This document shows positions 2,740 to 24,138 of a stretch of 24,629 nucleotides of DNA, one piece after another. The notes under the pieces are model-generated. The model saw only the letters and a list, made by a program, of their open reading frames with translations, had not been told where the DNA came from and ran no database searches. Within the stretch, counting starts at the first letter, position 1, and each line of letters starts with the position of its first letter. This DNA is from an uncultured Syntrophomonadaceae bacterium (GTDB lineage Bacteria > Bacillota > Dethiobacteria > DTU022). A program made the position numbers and the translations under genes. Location: assembly GCA_964585625.1 (NCBI GenBank), contig CAZPET010000002.1, positions 1 through 24,629 of the forward strand, in the 5' to 3' direction.

Positions 2740-3462
2740 TTAATTATAGAAGATCCGCTCTGCTTTTTCAATTATTTGTTGGCCCGGTCGCTTGATAAAT
2801 TCCCAAACCTTGCTCCGCCAGCGAACTGCATTCTGCGGCTGCCTGCCGGCGCCAGGATCCGGCGGCTCCTTCATGCCGGCGGTGAGAAGGCTCTCTTCTT
2901 CATCGCTTTCAAATCTCTGTTCTTCTTCCGCAGAGTGATTGTCAAATATTACCGGAGGGAGGCAAAGCGAAGGGAAAAGGAGACACCACCAGTTTTCGCC
3001 GGCACCCTCACCGATGGTGATCATCAAGGCAGTGTAATTTCCGGCCGGGTAGATCCGGCGTCCGTAGGTCCGCAAAGGGAATTTTTCTCGGGTAAGCCGT
3101 ACCCCGATTTGCGCCTCTTCCGCAGCAGCTGCGGCAAACTCCTGGAGGGATCTTTCAAGTTCGGGCAGATAACCCTGTAAAAACTCCAGGTAAATCTGAA
3201 TATTACCGGCTTCGGGCGGACTGTTTTCTGACAGCAGCTGACGCACCCGGGCGGCAAGAGCCATTTTGAAACGCTGCTCTGCCGGGCTGTCGCCTGCGGC
3301 CCGCACATGCAGCCGGACCACGGGTTCGCCGGCATGAATCTGCCAGCAGGCGGCCCCCGCCTGCCGGTGAACCGGGCGGAATGCCGGTCCCAGCAGGGCA
3401 ATGATCACAATTAAAACCATAAAGATAAACCAGTGATCTTTAAGGATTGTTCTTTTCTTCAT
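2740..3462 (-). CDS. spoIIR: Stage II sporulation protein R
   Basis: N-terminal hydrophobic signal; RLHV.A..DS..EQ..K; FP.RTYG..YPAG.Y.AL.I.IGEGAGENWWCLLFPSLC, the SpoIIR signature. SD GGAGG inside the upstream sigma gene. Downstream of prfA-prmC as in Bacillus. Confidence 0.9.
   Translation of the reverse strand: MKKRTILKDHWFIFMVLIVIIALLGPAFRPVHRQAGAACWQIHAGEPVVRLHVRAAGDSPAEQRFKMALAARVRQLLSENSPPEAGNIQIYLEFLQGYLPELERSLQEFAAAAAEEAQIGVRLTREKFPLRTYGRRIYPAGNYTALMITIGEGAGENWWCLLFPSLCLPPVIFDNHSAEEEQRFESDEEESLLTAGMKEPPDPGAGRQPQNAVRWRSKVWEFIKRPGQQIIEKAERIFYN
2743..2771 (-). promoter_or_regulatory. sigmaA-type promoter embedded in the last codons of spoIIR
   Basis: TTGAAA (2771-2766)-N17-TATAAT (2748-2743), about 55 nt upstream of the Na/Pi gene start. 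Confidence 0.7.
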
Positions 3463-4264
3463 CGCGGTTCTCCTCCGGGTTGGATTCCTGCTTGTAGTGG
3501 CGGCGGATCATCTCCAGGGCCGCTTTTTCAATCCTTGAAACCTGGGCCTGAGAAATACCCACCTGCCTGGCAATTTCAACCTGGGTTTTTCCTTCGAAGA
3601 AGCGCGCTTCGATGATCCGTTTTTCCCTGGGATCAAGCTTATCCAGGGCCTCCTGCAGGGCTATGTTTTCGAGCCACTTCTCGGTGCTGTCGGATTGGTC
3701 GCTGATCAGATCCATTACATAGACCGGATCGGTGCTGTCGCGGAAAACCGGATCGTAAAGCGATACCGGTTCCTGGGCGGCGTTAAAGGCAAACACCACC
3801 TCTTCGGTGGTCATCTCCATGGCCTCGGCAATTTCACTGAGGTTGGGTTCGCGGTGATTTTTTTTCAGCAGCTCTTCCCTGGTCTGGAGAACCCGGTGGG
3901 AGAGGCTCTTGATTGAACGGCTGATATGGATGCTGTTGTTGTCGCGCAGGTAACGCTTGATTTCACCAATCACCATCGGGACGGCGTAGGTTGAAAAGTT
4001 TACTTCATGCTCCAGCTCGAAGTTATCAATCGCCTTGAGCAAGCCGATACAGCCAACCTGGAAGAGATCGTCCAGTGATTCACCCCGGTTTTTGAAACGC
4101 TGCAGGATGCTTAAAACCAGGCGCAGGTTTCCCCTGACCAGGGTATCCCGGGCTTCAAGGTCTCCTTTTTTGACCCGGCAAAACAGCTCTTTCATCTCTT
4201 CTGTCGACAGGATCGCCAGTTTGAAGGTGTTTACCCCGCTGAGCTTAACTTTGTTCGGCAGCAC
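3440..4264 (-). CDS. sigG: Sporulation sigma factor, sigmaG-like (probable paralog or relocated sigG)
   Basis: SigG-type N-terminus (NKVKLSGVNTFKLAIL vs NKVEICGVDTSKLPVL), GNLRLVLS, DDLFQVGCIGL, FSTYAVPMVIGEIKRYLRDNN, GKTQVEIARQVGISQAQVSRIEKAA. GTG start with SD GAGGAGG. Confidence 0.85.
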   Translation of the reverse strand: MLPNKVKLSGVNTFKLAILSTEEMKELFCRVKKGDLEARDTLVRGNLRLVLSILQRFKNRGESLDDLFQVGCIGLLKAIDNFELEHEVNFSTYAVPMVIGEIKRYLRDNNSIHISRSIKSLSHRVLQTREELLKKNHREPNLSEIAEAMEMTTEEVVFAFNAAQEPVSLYDPVFRDSTDPVYVMDLISDQSDSTEKWLENIALQEALDKLDPREKRIIEARFFEGKTQVEIARQVGISQAQVSRIEKAALEMIRRHYKQESNPEENRDEEKNNP

Positions 4265-7726: not shown

Positions 7727-7927
7727 TTACTCCATGCCGTACTTCCGCTTGAAGCGCTCCACCCTGCCTCCGGTATCGACGAACTTCTGCTTGCCGGTAA
7801 AGAAAGGATGGCACTTGGAGCATATTTCCACCTTCAGGTTCTCCCTGGTGGAACCGGTTTCAAAAGTTTCCCCGCAGGCGCAGGTGACCACCGTGCGGAA
7901 ATAGCGGGGATGAATTTTCTCTTTCAT
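7727..7927 (-). CDS. rpmE: 50S ribosomal protein L31, Zn-binding (C+) type
   Basis: [12 protein letters not shown]...[24 protein letters not shown]. Confidence 0.97.
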
Positions 7928-7963
7928 TCCTGAACAACCTCCCTGGCTTCACTTTCAGGATAA

Positions 7964-7992
7964 ATTTTAGCACAACTGTATTCATTGCGCAA
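7964..7992 (-). promoter_or_regulatory. sigmaA promoter for rpmE-DUF1385-prfA-prmC
   Basis: TTGCGC (7992-7987)-N17-TAAAAT (7969-7964) with TGn extension. Confidence 0.65.
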
Positions 7993-8102
7993 CAGGCCGG
8001 CCTATGACCAGCCCCGCATCTATTCACACACCGTGAGCCCGGATGAGAACAAGGGGAGCCAAGAATTGCAGAGCCCCGGGAAGTTTCACGCAAATCGAAC
8101 CT

Positions 8103-9638
8103 CTAATTGCCGCCGATCTGCGTCTCCCTGATGTAATCTTCAACAGTATCGCGGTCACTGTAAGGGAGAGTCTGCTCCCCGATGATCTGGCACTCTTCGT
8201 CTCCTTTCCCGGCCAGCAGCACCATGTCCCCCGGCCGGGCCATGGCCAGAGCATGGAAGACCGCCTCCCGCCGGTCGGGAATAACGAGCGGCGGACAGCG
8301 CATCCCTTTCTTGATATCATCTATAATTGCCGACGCATCTTCTCCGGCGGGGTTGTCGGTAGTCAGGATCACCTCGTCGCTGTAGAGCTCGGCGATCCGG
8401 CCCATCAGCGGCCGTTTCCCCCGATCCCTTTCTCCGGGACAGCCAAAGAGGGTGATCCGCCGGCGGGCCGGCCGGGTGAAAAGCAGTTTCAAGACCTGCT
8501 CCAACCCGTCGGGGGTATGGGCAAAATCGATAATCACGGTAAAGCCGGCCCGGGTTTCGATTTCCTCAAAGCGTCCCGGCACCTGCCGGAGTCCATTCAA
8601 CCCTGCGGCAACAGCTTCCGGAGCCAAACCTTCTTTGCGAGCTACCGCCGCTGCCGCGAGGGCATTGTAGACATTGAACTTCCCCGGCAGCTTCAATATT
8701 ACCCGAAAAGTTGTGGGCCACCCGAGCAGGTCAAAGCTGTAGAGCCCTGTTTCTGTTCGTGCAACATTAACTGCCCGCACGCCGGCCGCTGCCGCCCGGA
8801 TCCCGTAGGCCAGCCGGGGCAGCTCCGCGGCCCGCGCCTCCAGCTCACTGTGGTAGCGGTCATCGGCGTTGAGTATTACCCCGCCGCTCGAATGTTCCTT
8901 CAACAGGTTCATCAGCATACTTTTAGCCGCCAGGTATTCCTGCATATTGTGGTGGTAATCGAGGTGTTCCCGGGTCAGGTTGGTATAGACCACACTGTCA
9001 AACAGACAGTGAGCTGCGCGGCGCTGCACCAGGGCATGGGATGAAACCTCCATGGCCACAACTTCCGCTCCCTGCTGCAGTGAAAAATGAAGGTGTTCCT
9101 GCAAATCCAGCGATTGGGGAGTGGTCAAATCAAACTTTCGCCTGATTCCGTTTACAATAAGGCCGTTGCTGCCCAAAATGGCAGTCCTGTGACCGGCAGC
9201 TTCAAAGATACTGTCAATAAAATAGGTGGTCGTGGTCTTTCCATTGGTGCCGGTTACACCGATCATTTTCATCTTGCGGCTTGGAAAACCGTAATAGCAT
9301 GCTGCCGCCGCAGAGAGGGCCAGGCCGGTATCGTCCACCGTAATGACGGGGATCCCGTTTTCCTCCAGGCCGACCGGGCGGGAAACAACCAGGGCCACAG
9401 CACCCCGGCGAACCGCCTCGGCCGCATAATCATGGCCGTCGGCTTTTCTCCCCGGCAGGCAAAAAAAAAGGGTGCCCGGTTTTACTTTCGCCGAATGATA
9501 GGCCAGCCGGGCGATAGGAATTGACTCCAGGCGCTTTTTTAGCTCCCGGCCGGCAAACGGCTCCAGCAATGTCCAGGCATTAAATCCTTCGCTGGAATAC
9601 CCGTCATTTTTTTCAGTGTAGAACTCACTTCGTTTCAA
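8103..9638 (-). CDS. murE: MurE-family UDP-MurNAc-dipeptide:diamino-acid ligase with L-Lys-type DNPA motif
   Basis: GVTGTNGKTT P-loop, MEVSSHAL, TNLTREHLDYH, FNVYNALAA, GRFE, DFAHTPDGL, FGCPGERDRGKRPLMG, DNPA, AGKGDE. TTG start position uncertain. Confidence 0.9.
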   Translation of the reverse strand: MKRSEFYTEKNDGYSSEGFNAWTLLEPFAGRELKKRLESIPIARLAYHSAKVKPGTLFFCLPGRKADGHDYAAEAVRRGAVALVVSRPVGLEENGIPVITVDDTGLALSAAAACYYGFPSRKMKMIGVTGTNGKTTTTYFIDSIFEAAGHRTAILGSNGLIVNGIRRKFDLTTPQSLDLQEHLHFSLQQGAEVVAMEVSSHALVQRRAAHCLFDSVVYTNLTREHLDYHHNMQEYLAAKSMLMNLLKEHSSGGVILNADDRYHSELEARAAELPRLAYGIRAAAAGVRAVNVARTETGLYSFDLLGWPTTFRVILKLPGKFNVYNALAAAAVARKEGLAPEAVAAGLNGLRQVPGRFEEIETRAGFTVIIDFAHTPDGLEQVLKLLFTRPARRRITLFGCPGERDRGKRPLMGRIAELYSDEVILTTDNPAGEDASAIIDDIKKGMRCPPLVIPDRREAVFHALAMARPGDMVLLAGKGDEECQIIGEQTLPYSDRDTVEDYIRETQIGGN

Positions 9639-9679
9639 CTTATTTTCAGCACCCCCTTTGCAAACCTTTATTTACAAGC

Positions 9680-10555
9680 CTATGGCAGGTATTTTAGCGG
9701 ATTCACATTTTCACCGGCGGCATGAATCTCAAAATGCAGGTGCGGTCCGGTGGTATTGCCGGTCAATCCGATATAACCCAGCGTTTGCCCCGGTGAAACC
9801 TGCTGGCCTGCCGACACGGCGGTCTTGCAGGCATGGCCATAGCGGGTCAGGTAACCACCGCCGTGGTTTACCTCAATCATGATCCCGTAGCTCCCCCGGT
9901 AGCCGGCATGGGTGACCCGGCCTCCGGCGGCGGCATGGAAAGCGGTGCCGTAAGCGACGGCAATGTCAATCCCGTAGTGAAACTTCCCGTTACGCCAACC
10001 GTAACCGGACGTCAGCCTTCCCTGCACCGGCCAGTGAAATGATACTCTCTGTGAGCCGCGGGAATCAACCCCGCCGGGGACAATAACTCGTTCTCCTCTG
10101 GGCAATGCCGCCGGGTCGCTGATCTCATTTGCCTGTAAAATGGTTGTTTCATCGACCCCGTAAGCGGCGGCAATGGCTTCCACCGTATCGCCTTCTTTAA
10201 CATCATGGATACAGCCAACCACGGTCAATATCTCCAGGCGATCCCCGGGGTGAATCAGGGCGGGGTTGACAATATCATTCAACCGGACCAGCGTATCAAC
10301 ATCGGTCCCGAAGCGTGCCGCGATCGTGTAAAGGCAATCCATCGGCTCAACAATATACTCCAGAATTTTCGGCTTGAGGGCCTCTTCTTCACAGCTTTTT
10401 GCAGCTGTGAAATCCTGCAACTGCAAATAATATAACGGCACCTCACCAGATTCGCCATCTTCTTCAAGTTCCGAAGCAGAAGCCTTTTCCACATGGCCGA
10501 GACAGGCCAGCCCTACGATCAACGCTACCGTTGCTGCTTTTAAAAGACCTGACAT
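9680..10555 (-). CDS. Exported peptidoglycan endopeptidase: signal peptide, 2x LysM, M23 domain
   Basis: Hydrophobic N-terminus with ASA cleavage-like site; two LysM repeats (GDT/DCL..IA..YG); M23 Zn motifs HYGID and HLHFE. SD AAGGAGG. Confidence 0.9.
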   Translation of the reverse strand: MSGLLKAATVALIVGLACLGHVEKASASELEEDGESGEVPLYYLQLQDFTAAKSCEEEALKPKILEYIVEPMDCLYTIAARFGTDVDTLVRLNDIVNPALIHPGDRLEILTVVGCIHDVKEGDTVEAIAAAYGVDETTILQANEISDPAALPRGERVIVPGGVDSRGSQRVSFHWPVQGRLTSGYGWRNGKFHYGIDIAVAYGTAFHAAAGGRVTHAGYRGSYGIMIEVNHGGGYLTRYGHACKTAVSAGQQVSPGQTLGYIGLTGNTTGPHLHFEIHAAGENVNPLKYLP

Positions 10556-10588
10556 GGTTGATCCTCCTTAACAGCAGGGTATAGAGCA

Positions 10589-10640
10589 TATTTTGCTGTG
10601 CAAGGAGTAAAATTATACATTTCATGCCATGAGAGGTAAA
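10589..10640 (-). promoter_or_regulatory. Overlapping sigmaA- and sigmaG-type promoter candidates for LysM-M23 (and possibly murE)
   Basis: TTTACC (10640-10635)-N17-TATAAT (10617-10612); GTATA (10618-10614)-N18-CAAAATA (10595-10589) against GHATR-N18-CATWHTA. Confidence 0.5.
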
Positions 10641-10683
10641 CGGATGGTGAGAGATTCACTTTATTCAAGTGATCGCAAACAGG

Positions 10684-11967
10684 CTAGAATGTATACATGT
10701 TGCTTAAGAAATCCTCGTTGTTCTTGGTCTGTTTCAGCTTGTCGAGCAGCATCTCGAGGAATTCAACGTTTTGAGTATTCCCCATTGCCCGCCGCAATGC
10801 CCACATCAGCTCGATCTTGCGCTCGTCGAGGAGCAGCTCTTCGCGGCGCGTTCCGGAACGCGAAATATCAATGGCCGGGAAAATTCGCCTCTCGGAGATC
10901 TTGCGGTCCAGGTGCAGCTCCATGTTGCCGGTTCCCTTAAATTCTTCGTAAATTACATCGTCCATTCTGCTGCCGGTGTCAATTAAAGCAGTGGCTATGA
11001 TGGTCAGGCTGCCTCCGCCGTCAATGTTCCGCGCCGCCCCAAAAAAGCGCTTCGGTTTATAAAACGCAGCCGGGTCAATCCCCCCCGAAAGTGTCCGGCC
11101 GCTGGGAGGGATCACCAGGTTGTAGGCGCGGGCGAGGCGGGTAATGCTGTCCAGCAGAATGGCCACATCGCGGCCCTGCTCTACAAGGCGCTGGGCCCGT
11201 TCCAGGACCAGTTCGGAAATGCGGATATGGTTTTCCGGTTTCTGGTCGAAGGTGGAGCTGGCCACATCAGCTTTTACGCTGCGCTCCATATCGGTGACCT
11301 CTTCAGGACGTTCATCAACCAGCAAGATGATCAGGGTAACCTCGGGATGATTGGTAGAGATGCTGTTGGCAATCTGCTTGAGCAGGATTGTCTTTCCCGC
11401 TTTCGGCGGAGAGACGATCAGGCCCCGCTGCCCTTTGCCGATGGGGATAAGAAGATCGATAATCCTGGTGGAAAGAATGTGGGGTTCTGTCTCCATCCGC
11501 AGCGCTTCACGCGGATGCACCGGAACCAGCGAGGTAAAGTTGGGCCGGCGCGAAAACGACTCGGGATCTTCATCGTTGATCGACTCGACCAGCAACAAAG
11601 CATTGTATCTTTCATTATCTTTTGGAGGCCTGATCTTTCCAGCCACCATATCGCCGGTTCGCAGGTTGAAACGGCGAATCTGTGACGCAGAAATATAGAT
11701 GTCATCATCAGAATAACAGTATTTGTAGCGGCGCAGAAATCCGAACCCGTCGTTCATAATTTCAAGGAGACCGGCCGCGGAGTCATGTTCTCTTTCTGTT
11801 TCGATTTTCCCTCCGTCCTCAGAAGTATAATCATCTGAGGTGAGGACACCGGTTAGCGCCTCAACCAGTTCCTGTTTGCGCATTGTTGAGTGACCCCTGA
11901 TGGCCTTTTCCCTGGCCAAACGGCGCAGTTCACTTAGTGTTGAATTTTTTAATTGGCTTGGCTCCAA
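10684..11967 (-). CDS. rho: Transcription termination factor Rho
   Basis: Rho N-terminal helical domain, GFGFLR RNA-binding motif, [42 protein letters not shown]. Confidence 0.98.
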
Positions 11968-12538: not shown

Positions 12539-14539
12539 ATGAACTATTTTCGTGGTTTTTTAATTGTCTTTATTGTTTTGTTGCTGAGCATATCCGGAAG
12601 TTTTGGCTACCTGGTCTATACTATCGGGGAGATGGAGCAGCTTCCGGAGCCTTCACCTCCTTTGACCACGCGGATTTACGATTGCCGGGACGAACTCATG
12701 GCGGTCCGCTATGAAGAAAACCGCGTTGAGGTTCCCCTGGAGCGGGTTTCCGAATATTTGGTCAATGCCACGCTTGCCGTGGAAGACCGCCGGTTTTACC
12801 GGCATCACGGATTTGATCCGGCCGGCCTGGCCCGGGCGCTGCTAAGCAACCTTAAGGGAGGGCAGACCTCTCAGGGCGGCAGCACCATCACCCAGCAGCT
12901 GGCTAAAAATCTGTTCCTGTCGCATGATCGCACCTTGGAGCGAAAATTTAAAGAGGCTCTGTACACCATTCACCTGGAGAGCCGTTATCATAAAGATGAA
13001 ATCCTGGAAATGTATTTAAACACAATCTACTACGGTCACGCCGCTTACGGAGTCGAAGCCGCCGCTCAAACCTATTTCGGCAAATGCGCCGCCGATCTTA
13101 GCCTGGGTGAAGCGGCGCTCTTGGCCGGACTGCCTAAAGGCCCCTCTTATTACTCTCCCCACCTCAATCCGGAAGCGGCGGAGCAGCGCCAGAGAACAGT
13201 CTTGAGCCAGATGGTTTCCGCGGGCTTCATTGATGAGGATGAGAAAGAAACGGCCCTGCGGGAACAGCTGGGTTTCCGGGAGCTGTCAGATGAAGAAAGT
13301 CCGGCGTATTTTCTTGATTACGTGATCAACACCGAGCTCGCTGAATTATTTAACGGAGACTTGAATCCTGTTTACCGGGACGGCTTAAATATTTATACCA
13401 CCATTAACCCGGATATGCAGCAGCTGGCCCAGGAGACCATTGCCGGAATCCCCACGCTGCGCCTCGATGAAAATGGAAAGAGACAGCCCCAGGGGGCGCT
13501 GGTGGCCATTGAGCCGGATACCGGCTATGTCAGGGCGATGGTGGGGGGGCGCGACTTCAAAGAAACAAGTTTAAACCGTGCTTTGGCCCTCCGTTCGCCG
13601 GGTTCTACTTTTAAACCTTTTGTTTATGCAGCGGCGCTTGAAAACGGCTTTACCGCGGCGGACCTGGTCAGCTGCGAAGCTGTTACTTTTAACGAAGCCG
13701 GCCTGGAGGAGCCGTATACGCCGACAGATTTCGGAGGAGGCTTTCACAACCGGGAGCTGACCATCCGTGAAGCGCTGGCAAAATCGTGCAATATTGCCGC
13801 GATCAAGGTGCATGATCAAATCGGGAAAGATAAAGCGGTGGAGATGGCCCGTCGGCTGGGTATCTCCAGCCCTTTGGGAGCCTACTTCTCACTGCCCCTG
13901 GGGACCGGCGAGGTATCCCTGCTCGAATTGACCGCTGCTTTTGCCACGTTCGCCAACGGAGGCTTCCGCATCGACCCCCTGGTCATCCGTAAAGTTGTGG
14001 ATCCGCAGGGAAGGGTGCTGCTGGAGAACCGGCCGCAAAAAGAGCAGGTTCTGGACCCGGCCATCGCTTTTTTGATCACCGATATGCTCAAAGGTGTCCT
14101 CGGGGAAGGAGGCACCGCCAGTGCCGCCGGATCGATTCTAAACCGCCCCGCGGCAGGCAAATCGGGCACCTCTCAGGAGAGTAAAAATGCGCACATGATC
14201 GGTTATACGCCGCAGCTGGTAGCCGGTATATATGTCGGTGACGATTACGAGAAACCGATTGATTTTTCAGGAGGAGGCGCAGCCGCCCCCCTGTGGGCCT
14301 GGTTCATGAAGCTCGCCTTGCAAGATAGCGCTGTTCTCGATTTTGAAGTTCCCGGGGGAATCGTCAGCTGCTCCCTCTGCCCGGAATCGGGATTGCTGCG
14401 CAGCCCTTTCTGCCCGGAACCGCTCAAAGATGAATTTTTCATTAGCGGAACTGAACCGGCAGAAGAGTGCCGCCTCTGCCGTCCTGCTTTCTGGTGGCCC
14501 TGGCTCCCCTCGTTAAAACATTCACCCGCTCTTCCTTAA
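12539..14539 (+). CDS. Class A bifunctional penicillin-binding protein (PBP1A family, PbpG/YwhE-like)
   Basis: Single N-terminal TM; GT51 motifs EDRRF and GGSTITQQLAKNL; transpeptidase motifs STFK, SCN, KSG. ATG 12539 with SD GGGGAG. Confidence 0.93.
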   Translation: MNYFRGFLIVFIVLLLSISGSFGYLVYTIGEMEQLPEPSPPLTTRIYDCRDELMAVRYEENRVEVPLERVSEYLVNATLAVEDRRFYRHHGFDPAGLARALLSNLKGGQTSQGGSTITQQLAKNLFLSHDRTLERKFKEALYTIHLESRYHKDEILEMYLNTIYYGHAAYGVEAAAQTYFGKCAADLSLGEAALLAGLPKGPSYYSPHLNPEAAEQRQRTVLSQMVSAGFIDEDEKETALREQLGFRELSDEESPAYFLDYVINTELAELFNGDLNPVYRDGLNIYTTINPDMQQLAQETIAGIPTLRLDENGKRQPQGALVAIEPDTGYVRAMVGGRDFKETSLNRALALRSPGSTFKPFVYAAALENGFTAADLVSCEAVTFNEAGLEEPYTPTDFGGGFHNRELTIREALAKSCNIAAIKVHDQIGKDKAVEMARRLGISSPLGAYFSLPLGTGEVSLLELTAAFATFANGGFRIDPLVIRKVVDPQGRVLLENRPQKEQVLDPAIAFLITDMLKGVLGEGGTASAAGSILNRPAAGKSGTSQESKNAHMIGYTPQLVAGIYVGDDYEKPIDFSGGGAAAPLWAWFMKLALQDSAVLDFEVPGGIVSCSLCPESGLLRSPFCPEPLKDEFFISGTEPAEECRLCRPAFWWPWLPSLKHSPALP

Positions 14540-15147
14540 AGAAGAAACGGATTGCTGCGCGCTTCTGTTTCGATCGTGGTGGCCGGGCCGTGTCCTGGAT
14601 ATACCACGGTCTGCGGCGGCAATACCATCAACTTCTCTTTAATACTGCCGATCAAGAGCGTGTAGGAGCCGCCGGCAAGATCGGTCCGGCCGATGGAACC
14701 GGCAAAAAGAGTGTCGCCGGTAAAAACGACCCCGTCGCCATAAAGTGAAATGCCGCCCCCGGTATGGCCGGGGGTCTCAAGAACAGCAAGAACCTTCCGG
14801 CCAACAGGGATCTGCTCGCCTTCTTTGAGCAGACGGTCAGGCTGTACCGGTTTGCCGAAGAGAACTCCCAGCCCGAAGCCGGGGTTGCAGTATATTTCCA
14901 GATCCTTCTCAGGCAGCAAAAGCGGCGCCCGGAGGGCCTCTTTCAACCTCCCGTTGGCCCCGGTATGATCGATATGCCCGTGAGTGTTGACAATTCCGTT
15001 TATTTTTAGCCCGCTCTTCTCAATTTGATGCAAGATCCGCTTTCCTTCCGCACCTGGATCGATAACAATTCCCTCCCCTGTATCCGGACAGCTGACCAGG
15101 TAACAGTTTGTGGCAAACATGCTCACCACCAGTGCCTGTACATGCAT
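14536..15147 (-). CDS. MBL-fold metallo-hydrolase, glyoxalase II-like (YqgX/YcbL type)
   Basis: TNCYL, IDPG, THGHIDH, TPGHT, FTGDTLF, PGHG. SD AAGGAGG. Confidence 0.9.
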   Translation of the reverse strand: MHVQALVVSMFATNCYLVSCPDTGEGIVIDPGAEGKRILHQIEKSGLKINGIVNTHGHIDHTGANGRLKEALRAPLLLPEKDLEIYCNPGFGLGVLFGKPVQPDRLLKEGEQIPVGRKVLAVLETPGHTGGGISLYGDGVVFTGDTLFAGSIGRTDLAGGSYTLLIGSIKEKLMVLPPQTVVYPGHGPATTIETEARSNPFLL

Positions 15148-15287
15148 CCCACTTCCCCCTCCTTGCTAAACTATTAAACGCTCTTCACACGCTTGGTGAC
15201 GCTCAAGTCTAGTTTATTTTCAGCCCCGGTAGGGTAATGAGATCCTTCGCTGCGCTATTCAAAGCCTATTTTTAAATAGCTCCGTTG

Positions 15288-16217
15288 CTAATCCGTTCCA
15301 ACCTCCAGGAGCATGCGGACTGCCGGTAATATATCGGTAAGATCGCGGAGCAGGGGAGCGATCTTTCGCCTGACCGCATCTGCTCCGATCAACAGGGCCG
15401 GAACTTCATTTAGAGTATGCCTGCCGTGAGAAAGATCTTCGAGGTTTCCATGATCGCTGGTAACAATAAGGAGCGTCTGCCCCGGATCAAGATGTTCTGC
15501 TGCAGCGCCGAGAAAGCGATCCAGCGTGCTCACCACCTCGCTGGCCTGCTCCCGGCCGGCGAGGTGCCCGGCATAATCGCTCAAAAAATATTCAAAGAGA
15601 GAGAAATCAAAATTCCTGCCGATATCCACCAGCCTTTGGCCGGCCTCCTCGGGAGTGATCTCGGGAAGGGAGAAACCCATCTTGTTTAAAAGCTCATTGG
15701 TCAGGTCCATATAAAGGGCCTTCCCGGCCTTCAAATCATCGAGGTTGTAAAAGTGGAGCCCTCCAAAGAAGGTGATCAGGGTTGAACAGGAGTGGCGCCA
15801 CCCGGGAAGCCCCTCCTTCAATTTTTCAAAAAAAGGCGGGCGGTAGGCATTGATAAAGGCACAGCGGTAGCCCTCCTCCCGGAGAGAGGCAAAGATCCCT
15901 TCCTTTGCCAGGAGTTCACGCAGGAAACGGTTGGGAAATCCGTTCAGGTGATAGCCGAGCCGGCGCGGCGCATTTGTTCCGGTAAAGATCGTTGCCTGCC
16001 CGGTGGCGCTCTGCGGCAGCCCCGCCACGCCCAGACACGCATCGAGCCCCAGCAGCGTAACCCGTCCATCGTGAAACCCGCTTATTTCCCTGGTCAGCGG
16101 GTTCCCCCGGAACAGCGTTTTAAAAAAGGGTGTTCCGGTAAAGACAAAAGGGTTCTCCGGAGCGATTTCTCCCAGGCCGACTCCGTCGATAAAAACAATA
16201 ATGACACGCAAACACAC
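15288..16217 (-). CDS. Alkaline-phosphatase-superfamily metalloenzyme (iPGM/phosphopentomutase-like core)
   Basis: Metal-ligand pattern IDGVG ... QSATG (nucleophile Ser) ... DYAGH ... SDHGN ... HT; only 309 aa. Confidence 0.75.
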   Translation of the reverse strand: MCLRVIIVFIDGVGLGEIAPENPFVFTGTPFFKTLFRGNPLTREISGFHDGRVTLLGLDACLGVAGLPQSATGQATIFTGTNAPRRLGYHLNGFPNRFLRELLAKEGIFASLREEGYRCAFINAYRPPFFEKLKEGLPGWRHSCSTLITFFGGLHFYNLDDLKAGKALYMDLTNELLNKMGFSLPEITPEEAGQRLVDIGRNFDFSLFEYFLSDYAGHLAGREQASEVVSTLDRFLGAAAEHLDPGQTLLIVTSDHGNLEDLSHGRHTLNEVPALLIGADAVRRKIAPLLRDLTDILPAVRMLLEVGTD

Positions 16218-16244
16218 TCCCCCATTTTTCTCCGGTTACCGCAC

Positions 16245-17390
16245 TTATTGCTCCGGGTTCGCTTCACCGGGCACAACCGTTACGACCAGGCTTTGGCCAT
16301 TTCGTTCGATTGTCAGCTCGATCTTATCTCCCGGGTAATAGTTCAACAAAGCATCAAAAAGCTGCGCAATATAGTGGACCCTTTCTTTGCCCACAGCCGT
16401 GATTACATCTCCGGTCTTGAGACCGCCTGCAGCCGCGGGGCTGCCCGGAATGACCTCCTTTACATTAACACCCTGGCGGACCGGGTTATCAGTTCCGTCA
16501 GATTGATTTTCCACCCAGATGCCCAGCTGCGGACGGCGGACCCGGCCGTCTTTTTTCAGATCATCAACCACCCGTTTAACGGTATTGGCGGGGATGGCCA
16601 GGCCGATCCCTTCAGCGCCGCTGATCTTGGCCGAATTGATCCCGATCAGCTCACCGCGCAGGTTTACCAGGGGGCCGCCGCTGTTGCCGGGATTGATCAC
16701 CGCATCGGTTTGAATATAGGTATAGGCATACTGGCTGTAGGCCACCCTGACTTCGCGCTCCAGCGCGCTGATGATCCCCCGGGTAACAGTATGTTTAAGG
16801 TAACCCAGGGGATTGCCGGCCGCCAGAACGGTCTCACCGACCCGCACCGCGTTGGAATTGCCGAGAGGAATATAGCTAAGACCGGACTGCTCGATTTTCA
16901 ACAGGGCCAGGTCGGTCAGACGGTCCTCTCCCACCAGTCCGGCTTCGAAACTGCGCGAATCGGAAGTCACCACCACGATCCGCGCAGCACCGTCGATGAC
17001 ATGCTGGTTCGTAACAATATAGCCGTCTTCCGAAATAACCGCCCCTGATCCGCTGCCGCTCAGCACGAGCTCGCTCTGGTCTGAATATGGCCCGGAAACA
17101 TAACAATTAACCGCCACCACTGCCGGCATCACCCGGCTCACCACATCCACCGTGGCCAGGTCATCTTTATGAGGGGGCAAGTTTGCCTGCCGGTTCTCCT
17201 CCGGGGTTTGCTGCTCCCCTTCAGGAAGATCCCCCGGCCCGGGAAGGTAACCATGACCGGTTAAAACGAAGTAGACGAGCAATGCACCGGCCAGGACCCC
17301 GCAAAGCCCAACCAGGAACAAGGTCCAGGCTGGAACCTTGCGGACATCTTTGCCGGAGTAATGACCACGATCGTTTCCAGAGTTCACCAC
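16245..17390 (-). CDS. htrA: Membrane-anchored HtrA/DegP-family serine protease with one PDZ domain (HtrC/YyxA position)
   Basis: N-terminal TM; catalytic triad TNQHV, DLALLK, GNSGGP; C-terminal PDZ domain. SD AAGGAGG. Confidence 0.95.
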   Translation of the reverse strand: MVNSGNDRGHYSGKDVRKVPAWTLFLVGLCGVLAGALLVYFVLTGHGYLPGPGDLPEGEQQTPEENRQANLPPHKDDLATVDVVSRVMPAVVAVNCYVSGPYSDQSELVLSGSGSGAVISEDGYIVTNQHVIDGAARIVVVTSDSRSFEAGLVGEDRLTDLALLKIEQSGLSYIPLGNSNAVRVGETVLAAGNPLGYLKHTVTRGIISALEREVRVAYSQYAYTYIQTDAVINPGNSGGPLVNLRGELIGINSAKISGAEGIGLAIPANTVKRVVDDLKKDGRVRRPQLGIWVENQSDGTDNPVRQGVNVKEVIPGSPAAAGGLKTGDVITAVGKERVHYIAQLFDALLNYYPGDKIELTIERNGQSLVVTVVPGEANPEQ

Positions 17391-17410
17391 ATCCGCCTCC
17401 TTCGTTTATC

Positions 17411-17451
17411 AGTTTACAATATACTTTTTGGAAATGTAAAGGATCTGTTAG
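17411..17451. promoter_or_regulatory. htrA promoter region: sigmaA-type promoter, inverted repeat and WalR-box-like direct repeat
   Basis: Minus strand TTTACA-N18-TAAACT; plus strand TTTACA-N16-TGTAAA palindrome (17413-17440); TGTAAA-N5-TGTTAG (17435-17451). Confidence 0.45.
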
Positions 17452-18062
17452 TCCTGTAAATGACTGATATCGTTAAACAATAGCAGGCGGCCGCCCTCCC
17501 CGCCGGGATCACACTTAACAATTGACAACGAAGCGGGAGCAGAGGCATACGGCCACTTCTGCCTGGAGGAGAATCCCAAACATCCGGAGATGAAGGCATT
17601 GATCAGCCGGCCGTGGCTAACGAGGAGAATCCGCTGTAACCCGGGATTTCCACGGCAGATCTTCCGCCGCAGGGTTCGGGTTCGTGCCAGCAGTTTTCGT
17701 TCACTTTCTCCTCCGCAGCGAAGCGCTCTCAATATGCCGCTTCCGGAGTGAAAGAGAAAAGGATAGGCGGTCTCCACTTCACTGCGCCGCATACCCTCAA
17801 TATAACCCCAGGAGCATTCCCTAAGCAGGGGTTCCCGCAGCGGTGCAAGCTTGATTCCCCGGGAAATAATTTCTGCGGTTAACCAGGCCCGCTGCAGATC
17901 GCTGCTTAAAAAAAGCTCAAAGCCGCCGGTTATGCTTAAACGCAGGGATAATCGTGCCGCTTCGCGGCTCCCCTCTTCGTTAAGGTGAAAGTCGCACCGT
18001 CCCTGGAAGCGCCCCTCCTCGACGGCTGAAGTTCTCCCGTGCCGGACCAGCCAGAACTCCAT
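17448..18062 (-). CDS. Histidine phosphatase family protein (PhoE/CobC/GpmB-like)
   Basis: LVRHG, SSDLQRA..TA, LRE.SWG..EG, LVSHG; starts 1 nt after the murA stop. Confidence 0.88.
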   Translation of the reverse strand: MEFWLVRHGRTSAVEEGRFQGRCDFHLNEEGSREAARLSLRLSITGGFELFLSSDLQRAWLTAEIISRGIKLAPLREPLLRECSWGYIEGMRRSEVETAYPFLFHSGSGILRALRCGGESERKLLARTRTLRRKICRGNPGLQRILLVSHGRLINAFISGCLGFSSRQKWPYASAPASLSIVKCDPGGEGGRLLLFNDISHLQD

Positions 18063-18063
18063 C

Positions 18064-19353
18064 TCAGCCGGGATCCCTGATGGCCTCCCGGGAGCCCTGT
18101 TCTCGCAGCGGCTTCAGCTGTGCTCCCAGGGCGGTCAGCTTCTCTTCTATCTTTTCATAGCCCCGGTAGATATGTTCCACCTCGCTGAGCACCGTATCCC
18201 CTTTCGCGATCAGCCCGGCCACTATTAGCGCAGCGCCGGCCCGCAGATCGGTGGCGGTAACCGGAGCCCCGGAAAGAGGGCTGCCTCCATTAATCACCGC
18301 GGTTCTTCCTTCAAGCTTGATCTGCGCGCCCATTCTTTTCAGTTCATCCACATGGCGAAAACGCCCGTCAAAAACATTTTCTGTGATAATACTGGTCCCT
18401 TCCGCTGCTGTAAGCAGGACCATTCCCAGCGGCTGCAGGTCGGTCGGGAAGCCGGGATAGGGAAAAGTTTTTAAATCGGAGGGGGTCAGCGGCCCGGTCC
18501 TGCGGACCCTGATCTGCTCCGGTTCTACATCAACCTCGGCGCCTATCTCTCTTAGCTTGGCGGTTACCGCTTCCAGGTGCTTCGGGATGACCTCCCCGAT
18601 AACAAGGTCGCCCCCTGTCGCTACAGCGGCAAGCATGAAGGTGCCTGCTTCGATCCGGTCCGGAATGACCGCATGTTCTGCGCCGCCAAAATGTTTAACC
18701 CCGTCGATCTTGATCACATCGGTGCCCGCCCCCTTGATTACCGCACCCATGGCATTCAAGAAATTGGCCAGATCGACGATTTCCGGTTCCTTGGCCGCAT
18801 TTTCCAGAACGGTACGCCCTTCCGCCCCTGCCGCAGCCAGCATCAGGTTAACCGTCGCCCCGACGCTGACCACGTCGAGGTAGATATGGGCCCCGGTTAA
18901 CTTTCTGGCAATCAGCTTGACCAGGCCGTGTTCGATTTCACATCTGGCCCCCATGGCGGTAAATCCCTTAAGATGCTGATCGATCGGACGCGGCCCCAGA
19001 TCGCAGCCCCCCGGGACCGGCACCGTCGCCCTTCCGAAACGGGTCAGCAGGCTCCCCATAAGGTAAGATGAGGCCCGCAATTTTTGCACCAGGTTATAGG
19101 GCGGGGTAAATCCGCGCAGCCTGGAGGGATAAAATTCAAGGGCATTCCGCCCCCGCCGGCGGATGGTCAGACCCAGGTCTTCGAGAAGGCGCAGCATTGT
19201 CCGGACATCGGTAATATCCGGGATGTTGCTTAAAGCAACTTTTTCGGAGGCCAGCAGGACAGCCGGCAAGATTGCCAGCGCCGCATTCTTGGAGCCGCTA
19301 ATTTTTACCCGTCCGTTTAGTTTATTTCCTCCGCGTATCAAGATTTTCTCCAC
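18064..19353 (-). CDS. murA: UDP-N-acetylglucosamine 1-carboxyvinyltransferase (MurAB/MurZ type)
   Basis: ISGSKNAAL, LRASSY, PGGCDLGPRPIDQHLKG (catalytic Cys; MurAB-like), PYPGFPTDLQP, TDLRAGAAL. GTG 19353 (MEKILIRGG) with GGAG SD; alternative GTG at 19371. Confidence 0.95.
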   Translation of the reverse strand: MEKILIRGGNKLNGRVKISGSKNAALAILPAVLLASEKVALSNIPDITDVRTMLRLLEDLGLTIRRRGRNALEFYPSRLRGFTPPYNLVQKLRASSYLMGSLLTRFGRATVPVPGGCDLGPRPIDQHLKGFTAMGARCEIEHGLVKLIARKLTGAHIYLDVVSVGATVNLMLAAAGAEGRTVLENAAKEPEIVDLANFLNAMGAVIKGAGTDVIKIDGVKHFGGAEHAVIPDRIEAGTFMLAAVATGGDLVIGEVIPKHLEAVTAKLREIGAEVDVEPEQIRVRRTGPLTPSDLKTFPYPGFPTDLQPLGMVLLTAAEGTSIITENVFDGRFRHVDELKRMGAQIKLEGRTAVINGGSPLSGAPVTATDLRAGAALIVAGLIAKGDTVLSEVEHIYRGYEKIEEKLTALGAQLKPLREQGSREAIRDPG

Positions 19354-19367
19354 TTCATCTTCTCCCG

Positions 19368-20237
19368 TCACTTAGATGTTTCCAACTCCAGGTTGCCTGT
19401 AAACGCGTTAATAAAGCAACCTTCTCCGTTCTCAAACAAAAAGCGCCACACCGGAGGCACCTCCCACTCCTCCGCATCGTACTCGCGGCTGTAAAAGCCC
19501 AGTTCTGCTTTGATTATCCGGCGGATTTGCGGACTTGGACCCAATACTTCCATTAATCTTAGCAAAGCCTCCGTGGCCGGGATCACCTCCATTTCCCGCT
19601 CCTGAGGCGGAGTTTCCGGTTCAAGCAAGTAAATATCTATCGCCTTGAGAGTATTATTTTCCAGGATTGCTTCCAGATAACCGCTGTAAAGAGGCCTGCC
19701 TTCAAAAATTTGCACATAATGCAACAATGTCTTTTCACCGGATCGTTCCAGGAAATCAAAGCGAGCTGCCGGGAGCGCCAACCCGCTGTCCTGCAGAAAG
19801 TGCTCGAAAGCCAAAACCAGATCCCGCTCTTCCGCGGAGGCGCCGTCTTCCAGGAGTTCTTTTCCCGGGATCAGATCGACCCGGATCAGCCCCCCGGGAT
19901 TTATTCTTATCCGGGCCCCCTCTCCCTCGTACATGCGAACTCCCCCGGGCCCGGCAGCCGGTGCCGCCGTAGCTGCAAAGTGCTTCCGCAGCGTTTCCTC
20001 GACTTCCCGCGAAGGACTTACCGTAAGGAAGGTGCTCTTTCTCATGGCGCGATCCACCTTTGCCTCCAGCACATAACCGTATTCTGCAAGCCGCCTCTCA
20101 GCATCACGCATTTCACCCGCTGAAACGGCTACCGGGGCCAGTTTCCGGATCTCTCCCCCAAACAGGTGGTAGCAAAGAAAAAGGTTTAATCCCAAAAAAG
20201 CGCAAATTAGAATTGTCTTTGCCCGGTTTAAGCTCAA
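19368..20237 (-). CDS. yycI: WalK regulatory protein YycI (WalI)
   Basis: N-terminal 'RAKTILICAFLGLNLFL' TM typical of YycI; position after yycH. TTG 20237 overlaps the yycH stop (TTGA), SD GGAGGG. Confidence 0.82.
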   Translation of the reverse strand: MSLNRAKTILICAFLGLNLFLCYHLFGGEIRKLAPVAVSAGEMRDAERRLAEYGYVLEAKVDRAMRKSTFLTVSPSREVEETLRKHFAATAAPAAGPGGVRMYEGEGARIRINPGGLIRVDLIPGKELLEDGASAEERDLVLAFEHFLQDSGLALPAARFDFLERSGEKTLLHYVQIFEGRPLYSGYLEAILENNTLKAIDIYLLEPETPPQEREMEVIPATEALLRLMEVLGPSPQIRRIIKAELGFYSREYDAEEWEVPPVWRFLFENGEGCFINAFTGNLELETSK

Positions 20238-23394: not shown

Positions 23395-24055
23395 CCCTTT
23401 TGGTATGAATATATTCCGGCTCGGCGGGATTCATTTCCAGCTTCTCTCGCAGCCGCCGGATGGTCACATCAACGGTCCGTTCATCTCCGAAAAAATCATA
23501 GCCCCAGACCTGGTTAAGAAGCTGCTGCCGGTTAAAAACATGACCCGGTCTCTGGATCAAGACCGAGAGGAGGGAAAATTCTTTGGGTGTCAGCTCCACG
23601 GGCCGCCCCCGGTTAAAAGCCTGCACCGCATCCAGGTCCACAATCAGGTCGCCGCAGCGCAGCTGTTTTTTTATGTCCGCACCGGGGGTCCGGGTGCGCC
23701 TGAGTATCGCCTTCACCCGGGCCAGGACCTCGCGGGCGCTGAAAGGCTTGGTCACATAATCATCGGCTCCAAGTTCCAGTCCCAGCACCTTGTCAACTTC
23801 TGTTTCCCGCGCCGTCAACATGATGATGGGGACCTCTTTTTGATGGGCGCGGATCTCACGGCAAACAGTGAAGCCGTCTTTCTTCGGAAGCATGATATCG
23901 AGCAGGATCAAATCCGGATGATCCTGCTCCAGGCGCGCCAGCGCCTCCTCGCCGTCGTAAGCAAGGATCACCTCATAGCCCTCTTTTTCCAGGTTATATT
24001 TCAAGATCTCGGCAATGGGCCGCTCATCGTCGACCACCAGTATTTTGGCAGGCAA
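23357..24055 (-). CDS. walR: OmpR-family response regulator WalR (YycF)
   Basis: ILVVDDERPIAEIL.YNL, LDIMLP, MLTA, GADDYVTKPFS, RTVDVTIRRLREK, YIHTKRGVGY. TTG 24055 with SD AAGGAG. Confidence 0.93.
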   Translation of the reverse strand: MPAKILVVDDERPIAEILKYNLEKEGYEVILAYDGEEALARLEQDHPDLILLDIMLPKKDGFTVCREIRAHQKEVPIIMLTARETEVDKVLGLELGADDYVTKPFSAREVLARVKAILRRTRTPGADIKKQLRCGDLIVDLDAVQAFNRGRPVELTPKEFSLLSVLIQRPGHVFNRQQLLNQVWGYDFFGDERTVDVTIRRLREKLEMNPAEPEYIHTKRGVGYYFRQKGRF

Positions 24056-24138
24056 GGTATCTCTCCTTAAAAACAAGCTCAAATCACAATTTCGTTTCCC
24101 GGTTATTGAATCCCTGCTGGAACAAGTTTACTTTGGAT

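What the first reader, a model, noticed from the sequence alone, without database searches (positions are those of the whole stretch)
8103..9638. Stand-alone MurE with the L-Lys-type DNPA motif in a spore-former: possible two-ligase peptidoglycan system
Seen: all core MurE motifs are intact, but the specificity loop reads ILTTDNPAGED (gac aac ccc gcc; plus strand about 8346-8357), the GKGHE motif reads GKGDE, and the N-terminal DSR motif reads HSA. No mraZ/rsmH/spoVD/murF/mraY neighbours are present. Established: meso-DAP-adding MurEs carry DNPR, whose Arg binds the DAP carboxylate, while L-Lys-adding enzymes carry D(D/N)P(N/A) (S. aureus DNPA). Studied spore cortices use meso-DAP, and Lysinibacillus sphaericus uses a Lys ligase for the vegetative wall and a separate DAP ligase for the cortex. 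Inference: this lineage may build a Lys/Orn-type vegetative or germ-cell wall with this enzyme and a DAP cortex with a second, dcw-linked MurE, or this is a neofunctionalised ligase.
Basis: partly seen in the sequence, partly recalled or inferred. Interest (0 to 1): 0.8.

Follow-up and report, generated by a model that had tools for sequence, protein, structure and literature searches.

The report
Second, non-DAP MurE ligase paralog
This is an intact cell-wall ligase (MurE) lacking the arginine that binds diaminopimelate, in a spore-forming lineage whose division gene cluster usually carries a normal diaminopimelate MurE, so these bacteria probably make two kinds of peptidoglycan stem peptide.

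Summary
The gene at 8103-9638 (minus strand) is an intact, high-confidence MurE reading ILTTDNPAGED, GKGDE and HSA, with no dcw genes in the window. DNPA is invariant in all 21 full-length orthologs.

The protein is not a recent local oddity. It belongs to an older group of "no-Arg" Firmicute MurEs (clades A, B, B2, C). All of them lack the DNPR arginine, share a shorter specificity loop, and lie outside dcw wherever I looked.

The organism is a Dethiobacteria-like spore-former. In that class the dcw cluster carries a separate DNPR-type MurE.

- **Sister clade B:** four MAGs hold both a dcw DNPR MurE and a DNPA MurE. The DNPA gene sits next to a FemAB transferase gene.
- **Clade A (this gene):** I could not show co-residence directly. 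There is circumstantial evidence only: two shared assemblies and a matching tetranucleotide signature.

Clade A is always paired with a secreted LysM-M23 endopeptidase gene behind a sigma-A-like promoter.

The two-ligase idea is therefore partly supported. Which amino acid is added (Lys, Orn or other) and when each ligase acts remain untested. Public annotation calls all these proteins DAP ligases, which is probably wrong.

The parts
8103..9638 (-). MurE paralog, clade A ('no-Arg' MurE), 511 aa from a TTG start. The first ~17 residues are unstructured, so the true start is uncertain.
   Evidence: Translation. Pfam finds three Mur ligase domains. TIGR01085 scores 475 bits and NF001126 481 bits. 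AF2 model has pLDDT 94.3, with TM 0.87 to S. aureus MurE 4C12. dN/dS is 0.14-0.22.
8346..8357 (-). DNPA codons (aa 428-431), at the position of DNPR in DAP-adding MurE
   Evidence: Sequence gac aac ccc gcc. Ala is invariant in 21 of 21 clade A proteins. The role of the DNPR Arg and Asn in binding the mDAP carboxylate is described in PMC3829189.
8196..8210 (-). GKGDE (aa 477-481), in place of GKGHE; second wall of the amino-acid pocket
   Evidence: In clade A the variable position is A (15), D (4), V (1) or N (1). It is H in all 133 DNPR proteins examined.
9489..9497 (-). HSA (aa 48-50) at the position of the N-terminal DSR motif
   Evidence: The same H-S is found in the dcw DNPR MurEs of Dethiobacteria and in T. 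maritima MurE.
9231..9251 (-). ATP-binding P-loop GTNGKTT (aa 130-136)
   Evidence: these columns are invariant in alignment A5.
9680..10555 (-). Secreted LysM-LysM-M23 metallo-endopeptidase with intact HxxxD and HxH motifs, 41 nt upstream of murE; probably co-transcribed
   Evidence: Pfam. Sequence reads HYGID and GPHLHFE. The rho / LysM-M23 / murE order is conserved in orthologous loci L001, L012, L028 and L030, whose MurE is 57-100% identical to the window's.
10612..10640 (-). Sigma-70-type promoter-like site TTTACC-17-TATAAT upstream of the LysM-M23 gene
   Evidence: Scores 10 of 12 in the promoter scan. The -10 block AAATGTATAATTT is invariant in four orthologous loci; the -35 is not conserved.
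10587..10596 (-). Invariant block GCAAAATATG in the predicted 5' leader of the LysM-M23/murE unit; function unknown
   Evidence: Alignment of four orthologous upstream regions.
10684..11967 (-). rho, the conserved upstream neighbour (context)
   Evidence: Pfam; synteny.
7727..7927 (-). rpmE (L31, 66 aa), the downstream neighbour (context)
   Evidence: ORF; L001 carries Ribosomal_L31 at the same place.

Best explanation
The gene encodes a catalytically competent MurE, a UDP-MurNAc-L-Ala-D-Glu:amino-acid ligase. Its amino-acid pocket has lost the arginine that pairs with the distal carboxylate of meso-DAP. In this ortholog the pocket has also gained an extra acidic residue (GKGDE).

It therefore most likely adds a diamino acid without a distal carboxylate. 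L-lysine is the best guess and L-ornithine is possible. The product would be Lys-type stem peptides.

The protein belongs to an old Firmicute clade of 'no-Arg, short-loop' MurEs (clades A, B, B2, C), all found outside dcw. In the class Dethiobacteria these serve as a second ligase alongside a DNPR, DAP-type MurE encoded in the dcw cluster. One cell can then make two chemically different precursors.

Here the gene is transcribed with a secreted LysM-M23 endopeptidase gene from a sigma-A-like promoter. This suggests a small module that both makes and trims the alternative peptidoglycan.

**Shown:** intact MurE, conserved loss of Arg, clade structure, synteny, two ligases in one MAG for clade B, and FemAB linkage of clade B.

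**Inferred:** the substrate, a second ligase in this particular genome, co-transcription, and timing of expression.
For: - The enzyme is an intact MurE by sequence, profile and fold.
- It is under purifying selection.
- DNPA is present in 21 of 21 orthologs. All 55 no-Arg proteins have a 49-residue D(NP)-to-G(KG) spacing, against 50-58 in 133 DNPR proteins.
- In a 99-taxon NJ tree, clades A, B, B2 and C each get 100% bootstrap and their union 74.5%. The dcw 'HS-type' MurEs fall among ordinary DNPR enzymes.
- The C-terminal domain is closest to clade B: 56% identity against 47% to HS-type.
- S. aureus Lys-ligase reads DNPA, and the DNPR Arg and Asn bind the mDAP carboxylate (PMC3829189).
- Complete dcw clusters with a DNPR MurE occur in Dethiobacteria, including D. 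alkaliphilus.
- Four same-MAG pairs of DNPR and clade B proteins have adjacent accessions: MBS4023671/MBS4021968, NLM45905/NLM46366, NLN06462/NLN07488 and HHX74107/HHX74635.
- FemAB lies beside clade B in two species.
- For clade A, P0020 and a dcw cluster carrying a DNPR MurE (P0200) are both in LSQX01 and ERZ941569. Their tetranucleotide r is 0.94-0.96, equal to that between two halves of one contig.
- The rho / LysM-M23 / murE unit and its -10 box are conserved.
Against: - No second MurE was shown in any genome that carries clade A. None of about 26 clade A accessions lies near a listed DNPR accession. Neither the MurE nor the MurF search returned a protein on the Mb-scale contigs that carry clade A.
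- The motif is not fully predictive. T. maritima MurE (DDPR) adds Lys, and S. aureus A409R does not gain DAP use.
- NCBIfam's DAP-ligase equivalog NF001126 passes its cutoff, while the Lys-ligase model NF010628 does not (318 against 536).
- No Fem, MurM or Asl gene is in this window.
- The superclade has only 74.5% support in a distance tree.
Confidence: 0.6

Rival explanations
1. Clade A is the only MurE of its genome. The dcw copy has been lost, and the whole wall, cortex included, is Lys/Orn-type. This would resemble S. aureus, where murE also lies outside dcw.
For: No clade A and DNPR accession pair was found, whereas clade B pairs appeared at once. No DNPR MurE or MurF representative was seen on the 3.54 Mb or 2.09 Mb contigs that carry clade A. 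A sigma-A-like promoter fits a housekeeping gene.
Against: The accession lists were incomplete: at most 4 per protein, and 15 of 26 members for one cluster. The searches listed only 120 representatives. A dcw cluster with a DNPR MurE co-occurs with clade A in two assemblies and has an indistinguishable composition. Every Dethiobacteria dcw cluster I read contains a DNPR murE. From memory, the spore cortices studied so far use DAP.
Confidence: 0.17
2. The enzyme still adds meso- or LL-DAP despite lacking the arginine, so the public annotation is right. It would be a redundant or condition-specific DAP ligase.
For: NF001126 (DAP-ligase equivalog) scores 481, above its cutoff of 373. Asp and Asn of DNPx, the DRD Arg, and the Gly and Glu of GKGxE are retained. 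The motif alone does not set specificity.
Against: NF001126 scores fall steadily from ordinary DNPR enzymes (620) to clade A (481). The low cutoff passes every clade, so the name carries no substrate information. The loss of Arg is invariant across four clades and comes with a shared loop deletion. Clade B is linked to FemAB, a hallmark of Lys-type bridged walls. I know of no characterised DAP-adding MurE without this Arg (from memory).
Confidence: 0.08
3. This is a neofunctionalised ligase. The extra pocket changes of clade A (GKG[A/D/V/N]E, HSx) would mean it adds an unusual residue or acts on a different acceptor, possibly for a specialised layer remodelled by the partner M23 peptidase.
For: His of GKGHE is replaced only in clade A. 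Pairing with the LysM-M23 gene is strict across 57-100% identical orthologs. An invariant leader element suggests dedicated regulation.
Against: All catalytic and UDP-MurNAc-dipeptide-side motifs are otherwise canonical, and the fold is a closed MurE. HSx also occurs in ordinary dcw DNPR enzymes and in active T. maritima MurE. The variable GKGxE position is also non-His (Arg) in clade C.
Confidence: 0.12

Closest known systems
Staphylococcus aureus MurE (L-lysine-adding; PDB 4C12/4C13)
   Same: It has the DNPA motif, lacks the DAP-binding Arg, and retains the Asp and Glu that hold the epsilon-amino group. The gene lies outside dcw (from memory). It gives the best TM-score to the model, 0.87.
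   Different: Only 31-32% identical. It belongs to a different family model: NF010628 scores 318 here against a cutoff of 536. It has 50-residue loop spacing against 49, judged from the residue numbers in PMC3829189. S. aureus has a single MurE and forms no spores.
Lysinibacillus (Bacillus) sphaericus two-ligase system: Lys ligase for the vegetative wall, DAP ligase for the spore cortex (1970s biochemistry; from memory, no paper retrieved)
   Same: A spore-forming Firmicute lineage with one DAP-type and one non-DAP-type MurE in the same genome. This was shown here for clade B.
   Different: This is a different phylogenetic lineage, anaerobic Dethiobacteria. Which ligase serves which compartment is unknown. 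The non-DAP gene is linked to an M23 endopeptidase (clade A) or FemAB (clade B). Co-residence is not proven for clade A.
Thermotoga maritima MurE (L-/D-lysine-adding; PDB 4BUB)
   Same: It is the best sequence hit in the PDB (E = 3e-87). It shares H-S at the DSR position (HSS) and 'PxGED' after the motif.
   Different: T. maritima keeps the Arg (DDPR) and has GRGHE. In the tree it does not group with the no-Arg clades.
Ordinary Firmicute dcw-linked meso-DAP MurE (NF001126 / E. coli 1E8C type)
   Same: Same fold, same catalytic motifs, and 42-47% identity. It passes the NF001126 cutoff.
   Different: Arg416 equivalent is replaced by Ala, and His467 equivalent by Asp or Ala. The specificity loop is 4-6 residues shorter. 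The gene is not in dcw.

Membership tests
MurE (UDP-N-acetylmuramyl-tripeptide synthetase, TIGR01085) | Three Mur ligase domains (N, middle ATP-binding, C) with a profile score above the curated cutoff | tested here: met
   PF01225, PF08245 and PF02875 all match. TIGR01085 scores 475 against a cutoff of 257.
MurE (UDP-N-acetylmuramyl-tripeptide synthetase, TIGR01085) | Catalytic motifs: P-loop GxxGKT, E of MEVSSH, the carbamylated Lys equivalent, H of DxAHTPD, and R of DRD | tested here: met
   All are present, and they are invariant columns in a 68-sequence alignment.
MurE (UDP-N-acetylmuramyl-tripeptide synthetase, TIGR01085) | MurE three-domain fold | tested here: met
   AF2 pLDDT 94.3. Foldseek TM is 0.82-0.87 to 2WTZ, 1E8C and 4C12.
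MurE (UDP-N-acetylmuramyl-tripeptide synthetase, TIGR01085) | ATP-dependent addition of the third residue to UDP-MurNAc-L-Ala-D-Glu | not testable with these tools
   Needs an enzyme assay.
meso-DAP-adding MurE (E. coli / M. tuberculosis type) | DNPR motif whose Arg (with Asn) binds the distal carboxylate of mDAP | tested here: not met
   Reads DNPA at 8346-8357. Ala is present in 21 of 21 orthologs. The role of Arg is described in PMC3829189.
meso-DAP-adding MurE (E. coli / M. tuberculosis type) | NCBIfam equivalog NF001126 above cutoff | tested here: met
   481 against 373. The same model passes every clade, including the FemAB-linked clade B, so it does not discriminate substrate.
L-lysine-adding MurE of Bacilli (NF010628 / PRK14022) | Profile score above the curated cutoff | tested here: not met
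   318.6 bits against a cutoff of 536.
L-lysine-adding MurE of Bacilli (NF010628 / PRK14022) | D(D/N)P(N/A) in place of DNPR, with the Asp and Glu that bind the epsilon-amino group retained | tested here: met
   DNPA and the Glu of GKGDE are present. The S. aureus residues are given.
Two-ligase peptidoglycan system of a spore-former (L. sphaericus type) | The organism forms endospores | tested here: met
   spoIIR (PF09551) and SigG (NF006071, 399 against 372) are in the window. bofA occurs in an orthologous locus.
Two-ligase peptidoglycan system of a spore-former (L. sphaericus type) | A second, DAP-type murE in the same genome | tested here: inconclusive
   Met for sister clade B in four MAGs. 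For clade A there is only sample co-occurrence and matching composition.
Two-ligase peptidoglycan system of a spore-former (L. sphaericus type) | Ligases expressed at different times or in different compartments, and walls of different chemistry | not testable with these tools
   The only clue is a sigma-A-like promoter upstream of the LysM-M23/murE unit.

The most novel reading that the evidence does not exclude
Clade A, with its uniquely altered pocket (DNPA plus GKG[A/D]E) and its obligate LysM-M23 partner, makes a stem peptide with a residue other than DAP, possibly not even Lys. That stem would be used for a distinct peptidoglycan layer or growth phase in anaerobic spore-formers, while the dcw DNPR enzyme makes the rest. 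On this reading a dedicated 'make-and-trim' module gives one cell two wall chemistries. It would be widespread in uncultured Dethiobacteria and hidden by uniform 'DAP ligase' annotation.
Probability: 0.15. Interest if true: 0.75.

Novelty: new variant of a known kind. Interest (0 to 1): 0.5.

Why it matters
**Cell-wall biology.** If confirmed, an uncultured, environmentally common class of anaerobic spore-formers (found in digesters, serpentinising sites and soda sites) builds peptidoglycan from two different third-position residues. That extends the old Lysinibacillus observation to the Clostridia-like side of the Firmicutes. It also supplies defined gene pairs to test: a dcw DNPR MurE with clade A plus M23, or with clade B plus FemAB.

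**Annotation.** One NCBIfam 'equivalog' names at least four clades of arginine-less MurE as DAP ligases. Wall-type predictions made from annotation alone would therefore be wrong for these lineages.

**Motif reading.** The DSR to H-S change is a lineage trait and not a sign of lost function.

Tried and rejected
**Searches for a second MurE in a clade A genome**
1. The genome-contig scan used a chimeric consensus query meant to pull out clade A and dcw-type MurE together. It returned one clade A locus (L030), one clade B locus (L084) and about nine dcw-type loci. No assembly appeared twice.
2. The metagenome scan used engineered patterns T[VL]FGCPGE and TDDNPRGE. Only the two LSQX01 contigs I already knew were relevant.
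3. I used contig length as a genome tag (3,544,436; 2,088,991; and others). No dcw MurE or MurF representative sits on those contigs. This is uninformative, because only cluster representatives are listed.
4. Accession adjacency worked for clade B but gave no pair for clade A.
5. I guessed the partner by predicted GC and chose P0204. Its locus L122 has 51% GC and r = 0.90, so it is a different organism.
6. Two look-ups were wasted: one on the window protein with Leu as its first residue, and one on P0406, which is not on record.

**Ideas rejected**
7. That clade A arose by duplication of the local dcw 'HS-type' gene. I rejected this on the tree, the domain identities and the loop length. The near-identical N-terminal stretch LAYHSA(K/R)VKPG.LFFCLPG remains unexplained.
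8. That a sporulation-sigma promoter lies upstream. I found no sigma-E, F, G or K consensus by eye, only TTTACC-17-TATAAT.

**Searches that found nothing**
9. Rfam gave no hits in the window.
10. The literature search found nothing on Dethiobacter wall type or on two-MurE spore-formers in the open library.
Full report
**1. The observation**

The ORF 8103-9638 (minus strand, TTG start, 511 aa) translates without interruption to a MurE-like protein. Pfam finds the three Mur ligase domains. TIGR01085 (murE) scores 475 bits against a cutoff of 257.

The codons at 8357-8346 read gac aac ccc gcc, within ILTTDNPAGED. GKGDE is aa 477-481 and HSA is aa 48-50. The P-loop, MEVSSH, TNLTREHLDYH, the AAK lysine, DFAHTPD and FGCPGERDRGKRP are all intact.

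An AlphaFold2 model built on a 68-sequence alignment has mean pLDDT 94.3. Only the first ~17 residues are disordered. The model superposes on S. aureus, E. coli and M. tuberculosis MurE with TM 0.82-0.87.

The window holds no dcw gene. On the minus strand the order is:

- walR, walK, yycH, yycI, murA, a histidine phosphatase, htrA, a metalloenzyme and an MBL-fold gene
- a class A PBP on the plus strand
- rho, LysM-M23, murE, rpmE, DUF1385, prfA and prmC
- nikR on the plus strand
- sigG, spoIIR, a Na/Pi-PhoU gene and sua5

.

**2. The motif is a conserved clade trait**

A search of 5.8 billion proteins returned 22 close relatives at 55-100% identity, which I call clade A. After a sharp drop in score, further MurEs follow.

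DNPA is present in 21 of 21 full-length clade A proteins. The GKGxE position is A, D, V or N and never H. The N-terminal motif is HS[A/D/G/T]. Pairwise dN/dS is 0.14-0.22. The gene is functional and constrained.

**3. What clade it belongs to**

Three more clades also lack the arginine:

| Clade | Size | Motifs | Source |
|---|---|---|---|
| B | ~480 aa | DSR, FGCPG, DNP[A/G], GKGHE | includes a Dethiobacter sp. MAG |
| B2 | ~535 aa | DNP[A/V] | not determined |
| C | ~483 aa | FGCRG, DNP[A/G/V], TGKGRE | one member named Oscillospiraceae |

A 99-taxon neighbour-joining tree (481 columns, 200 bootstraps) gave each clade 100% support. The union A+B+B2+C got 74.5%.

All 55 no-Arg proteins have exactly 49 residues between the Asp of DNPx and the first Gly of GKGxE. 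The 133 DNPR proteins have 50-58, mostly 53-55. I read this shared loop shortening as a mark of common descent.

By domain, clade A is closest to clade B in the amino-acid-binding C-terminal domain: 56% identity against 47% to the local dcw type.

Clade A is therefore an old no-Arg lineage. It is not a recent derivative of the neighbouring dcw gene.

**4. The organism and the dcw MurE of its class**

The closest named relative is P0002 (78% identical), from a 'Dethiobacteria bacterium' MAG. It has the same gene order over 20 kb.

Three DNPR proteins shared the odd HS motif. Two of them lie in complete dcw clusters: mraZ-rsmH-ftsL-PBP(PASTA)-murE-murF-mraY-murD-ftsW-murG-murB-murA-ftsQ-ftsA.

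Searching with one of these returned about 90 such 'HS-type' proteins, which read YH[ST], FGCGGERD, DNPRGED and GKGHE. They include Dethiobacter alkaliphilus, Dethiobacter sp. and 'Dethiobacteria bacterium'. More dcw contexts were confirmed.

The class typically has a DAP-type MurE in dcw. The DSR to H-S change is a lineage trait, also seen in T. maritima MurE. It is not evidence of neofunctionalisation.

**5. Is there a two-ligase system?**

For clade B the answer is yes. NCBI protein accessions of a clade B protein and an HS-type protein lie 461-1703 apart in four MAGs:

| Clade B | HS-type (dcw) |
|---|---|
| MBS4021968 | MBS4023671 |
| NLM46366 | NLM45905 |
| NLN07488 | NLN06462 |
| HHX74635 | HHX74107 |

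. Clade B lies tail-to-tail with a FemAB-family gene in two species. FemAB is the classic companion of Lys-type, bridged peptidoglycan.

For clade A I could not get direct proof. No accession pair was found. Both collection scans were cut off at 600 rows.

The best indirect evidence concerns the clade A protein P0020. It occurs in the same two assemblies (LSQX01 and ERZ941569) as a dcw cluster carrying an HS-type DNPR MurE (P0200) and MurF P0333. That dcw contig has tetranucleotide correlations of 0.94-0.96 with clade A loci. This equals the value between two halves of a single contig (0.94), and is well above other Dethiobacteria dcw loci (0.65-0.91).

I put the probability that clade A genomes also carry a dcw DNPR MurE at about 0.75-0.8.

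**6. Local anatomy and likely mechanism**

In every clade A locus read, a gene for a secreted protein with two LysM domains and an intact M23 domain (HYGID, GPHLHFE) lies 23-46 nt upstream of murE and just downstream of rho. These loci are the window, L001, L012, L028 and L030, whose MurE proteins are 57-100% identical to the window's. Downstream genes differ between lineages, so the conserved unit is rho / LysM-M23 / murE.

Upstream of the M23 gene is TTTACC-17-TATAAT, scoring 10 of 12. The -10 block AAATGTATAATTT and a leader block GCAAAATATG are invariant in four loci, while the -35 is not. I saw no sporulation-sigma consensus.

The most likely mechanism has these steps:

1. The enzyme binds UDP-MurNAc-L-Ala-D-Glu and ATP as any MurE does.
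2. It ligates a diamino acid whose side chain ends in an amine only. That amine is held by Asp428 and Glu481, with Asp479 adding negative charge in this ortholog.
3. MurF then completes the pentapeptide.
4. The M23 enzyme acts on the resulting cross-links outside the cell.

The substrate identity, co-transcription and timing are inferences.

**7. Comparison with known enzymes and systems**

The system works like the L-Lys MurE of S. aureus, which has DNPA and retains the Asp and Glu (PMC3829189). It is not a member of that family: NF010628 scores 318 against a cutoff of 536.

It passes the DAP-ligase equivalog NF001126. So do all the no-Arg clades, with scores falling from 620 for ordinary enzymes to 481 for clade A. 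The public name 'DAP ligase' therefore carries no substrate information and is probably wrong.

The system-level analogue is the two-ligase arrangement of Lysinibacillus sphaericus. I cite that from memory, since no paper was retrievable.

There are caveats on reading specificity from the motif. T. maritima (DDPR) adds Lys, and S. aureus A409R gains no DAP activity.

**8. Verdict**

I call it a new variant of a known kind: an uncharacterised, phylogenetically separate no-Arg MurE clade with an extra pocket change and an M23 partner, in a class where two MurEs per genome are demonstrable.

I score interest at 0.5. It is testable and corrects annotation. However, the substrate, the second ligase in this genome, and any division of labour between compartments are all unproven.

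Noticed in passing
window 9489-9497; proteins P0056, P0071, P0191-P0302: The N-terminal stretch of clade A, LAYHSAKVKPGTLFFCLPG, is almost identical to that of some dcw DNPR MurEs of the same class (P0056: LAYHSARVKPGNLFFCLPG). The rest of the N-domain is no closer to them than to other MurEs (44% against 42-43%). This could be convergence, a shared constraint or a short gene conversion.
   Followed up: partly
window 10587-10596 and 10609-10621 (minus strand): Two blocks upstream of the LysM-M23 gene, AAATGTATAATTT and GCAAAATATG, are invariant in orthologous loci whose MurE proteins are only 57-78% identical. The second block lies in the predicted 5' leader and has no assigned function.
   Followed up: partly
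window 2740-3462 and 3440-4264 (minus strand): A SigG-type sporulation sigma factor gene (NF006071, 399 bits against cutoff 372) overlaps the start of spoIIR by 23 nt. This pairing is kept in the P0002 locus.
   Followed up: partly
window 14536-24082: The walR-walK-yycH-yycI operon is interrupted, relative to B. subtilis, by a murA paralog and a histidine phosphatase before htrA. An extra 'metalloenzyme' gene sits before the MBL-fold walJ-like gene. The same order is found in L001 and L012.
   Followed up: no
L005 8747-12491; L084 2681-6443: Clade B murE is flanked on one side by a homocitrate-synthase-like (HMGL/HCS_D2) gene and proB-proA. On the other side is a convergent FemAB gene. This holds in two species and may link to Lys/Orn supply.
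   Followed up: partly
NCBIfam NF001126, applied to P0001, P0020, P0025, P0047 and P0049: The 'equivalog' for DAP ligase has a cutoff (373) low enough to name all arginine-less clades as DAP ligases. This includes the FemAB-linked clade. It is a systematic annotation problem.
   Followed up: yes
L110 (FZPS01000070.1) 7831-11374: A 1.94 Mb record shows mraY, then a MurF C-terminal fragment, then an inverted MurE C-terminal fragment, then a full murF. This looks like an assembly or scaffolding chimera inside dcw.
   Followed up: no
L120 4658-7553: Clade C no-Arg MurE (Oscillospiraceae MAG) is also outside dcw, lying between nth and lexA. I did not check whether it is the only MurE there.
   Followed up: no
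window 9638-9660: The murE start is uncertain. The strong RBS AAGGGGG ends 13 nt before the TTG. Orthologs are annotated with 485-541 aa, and the first ~17 residues are disordered in the model.
   Followed up: partly
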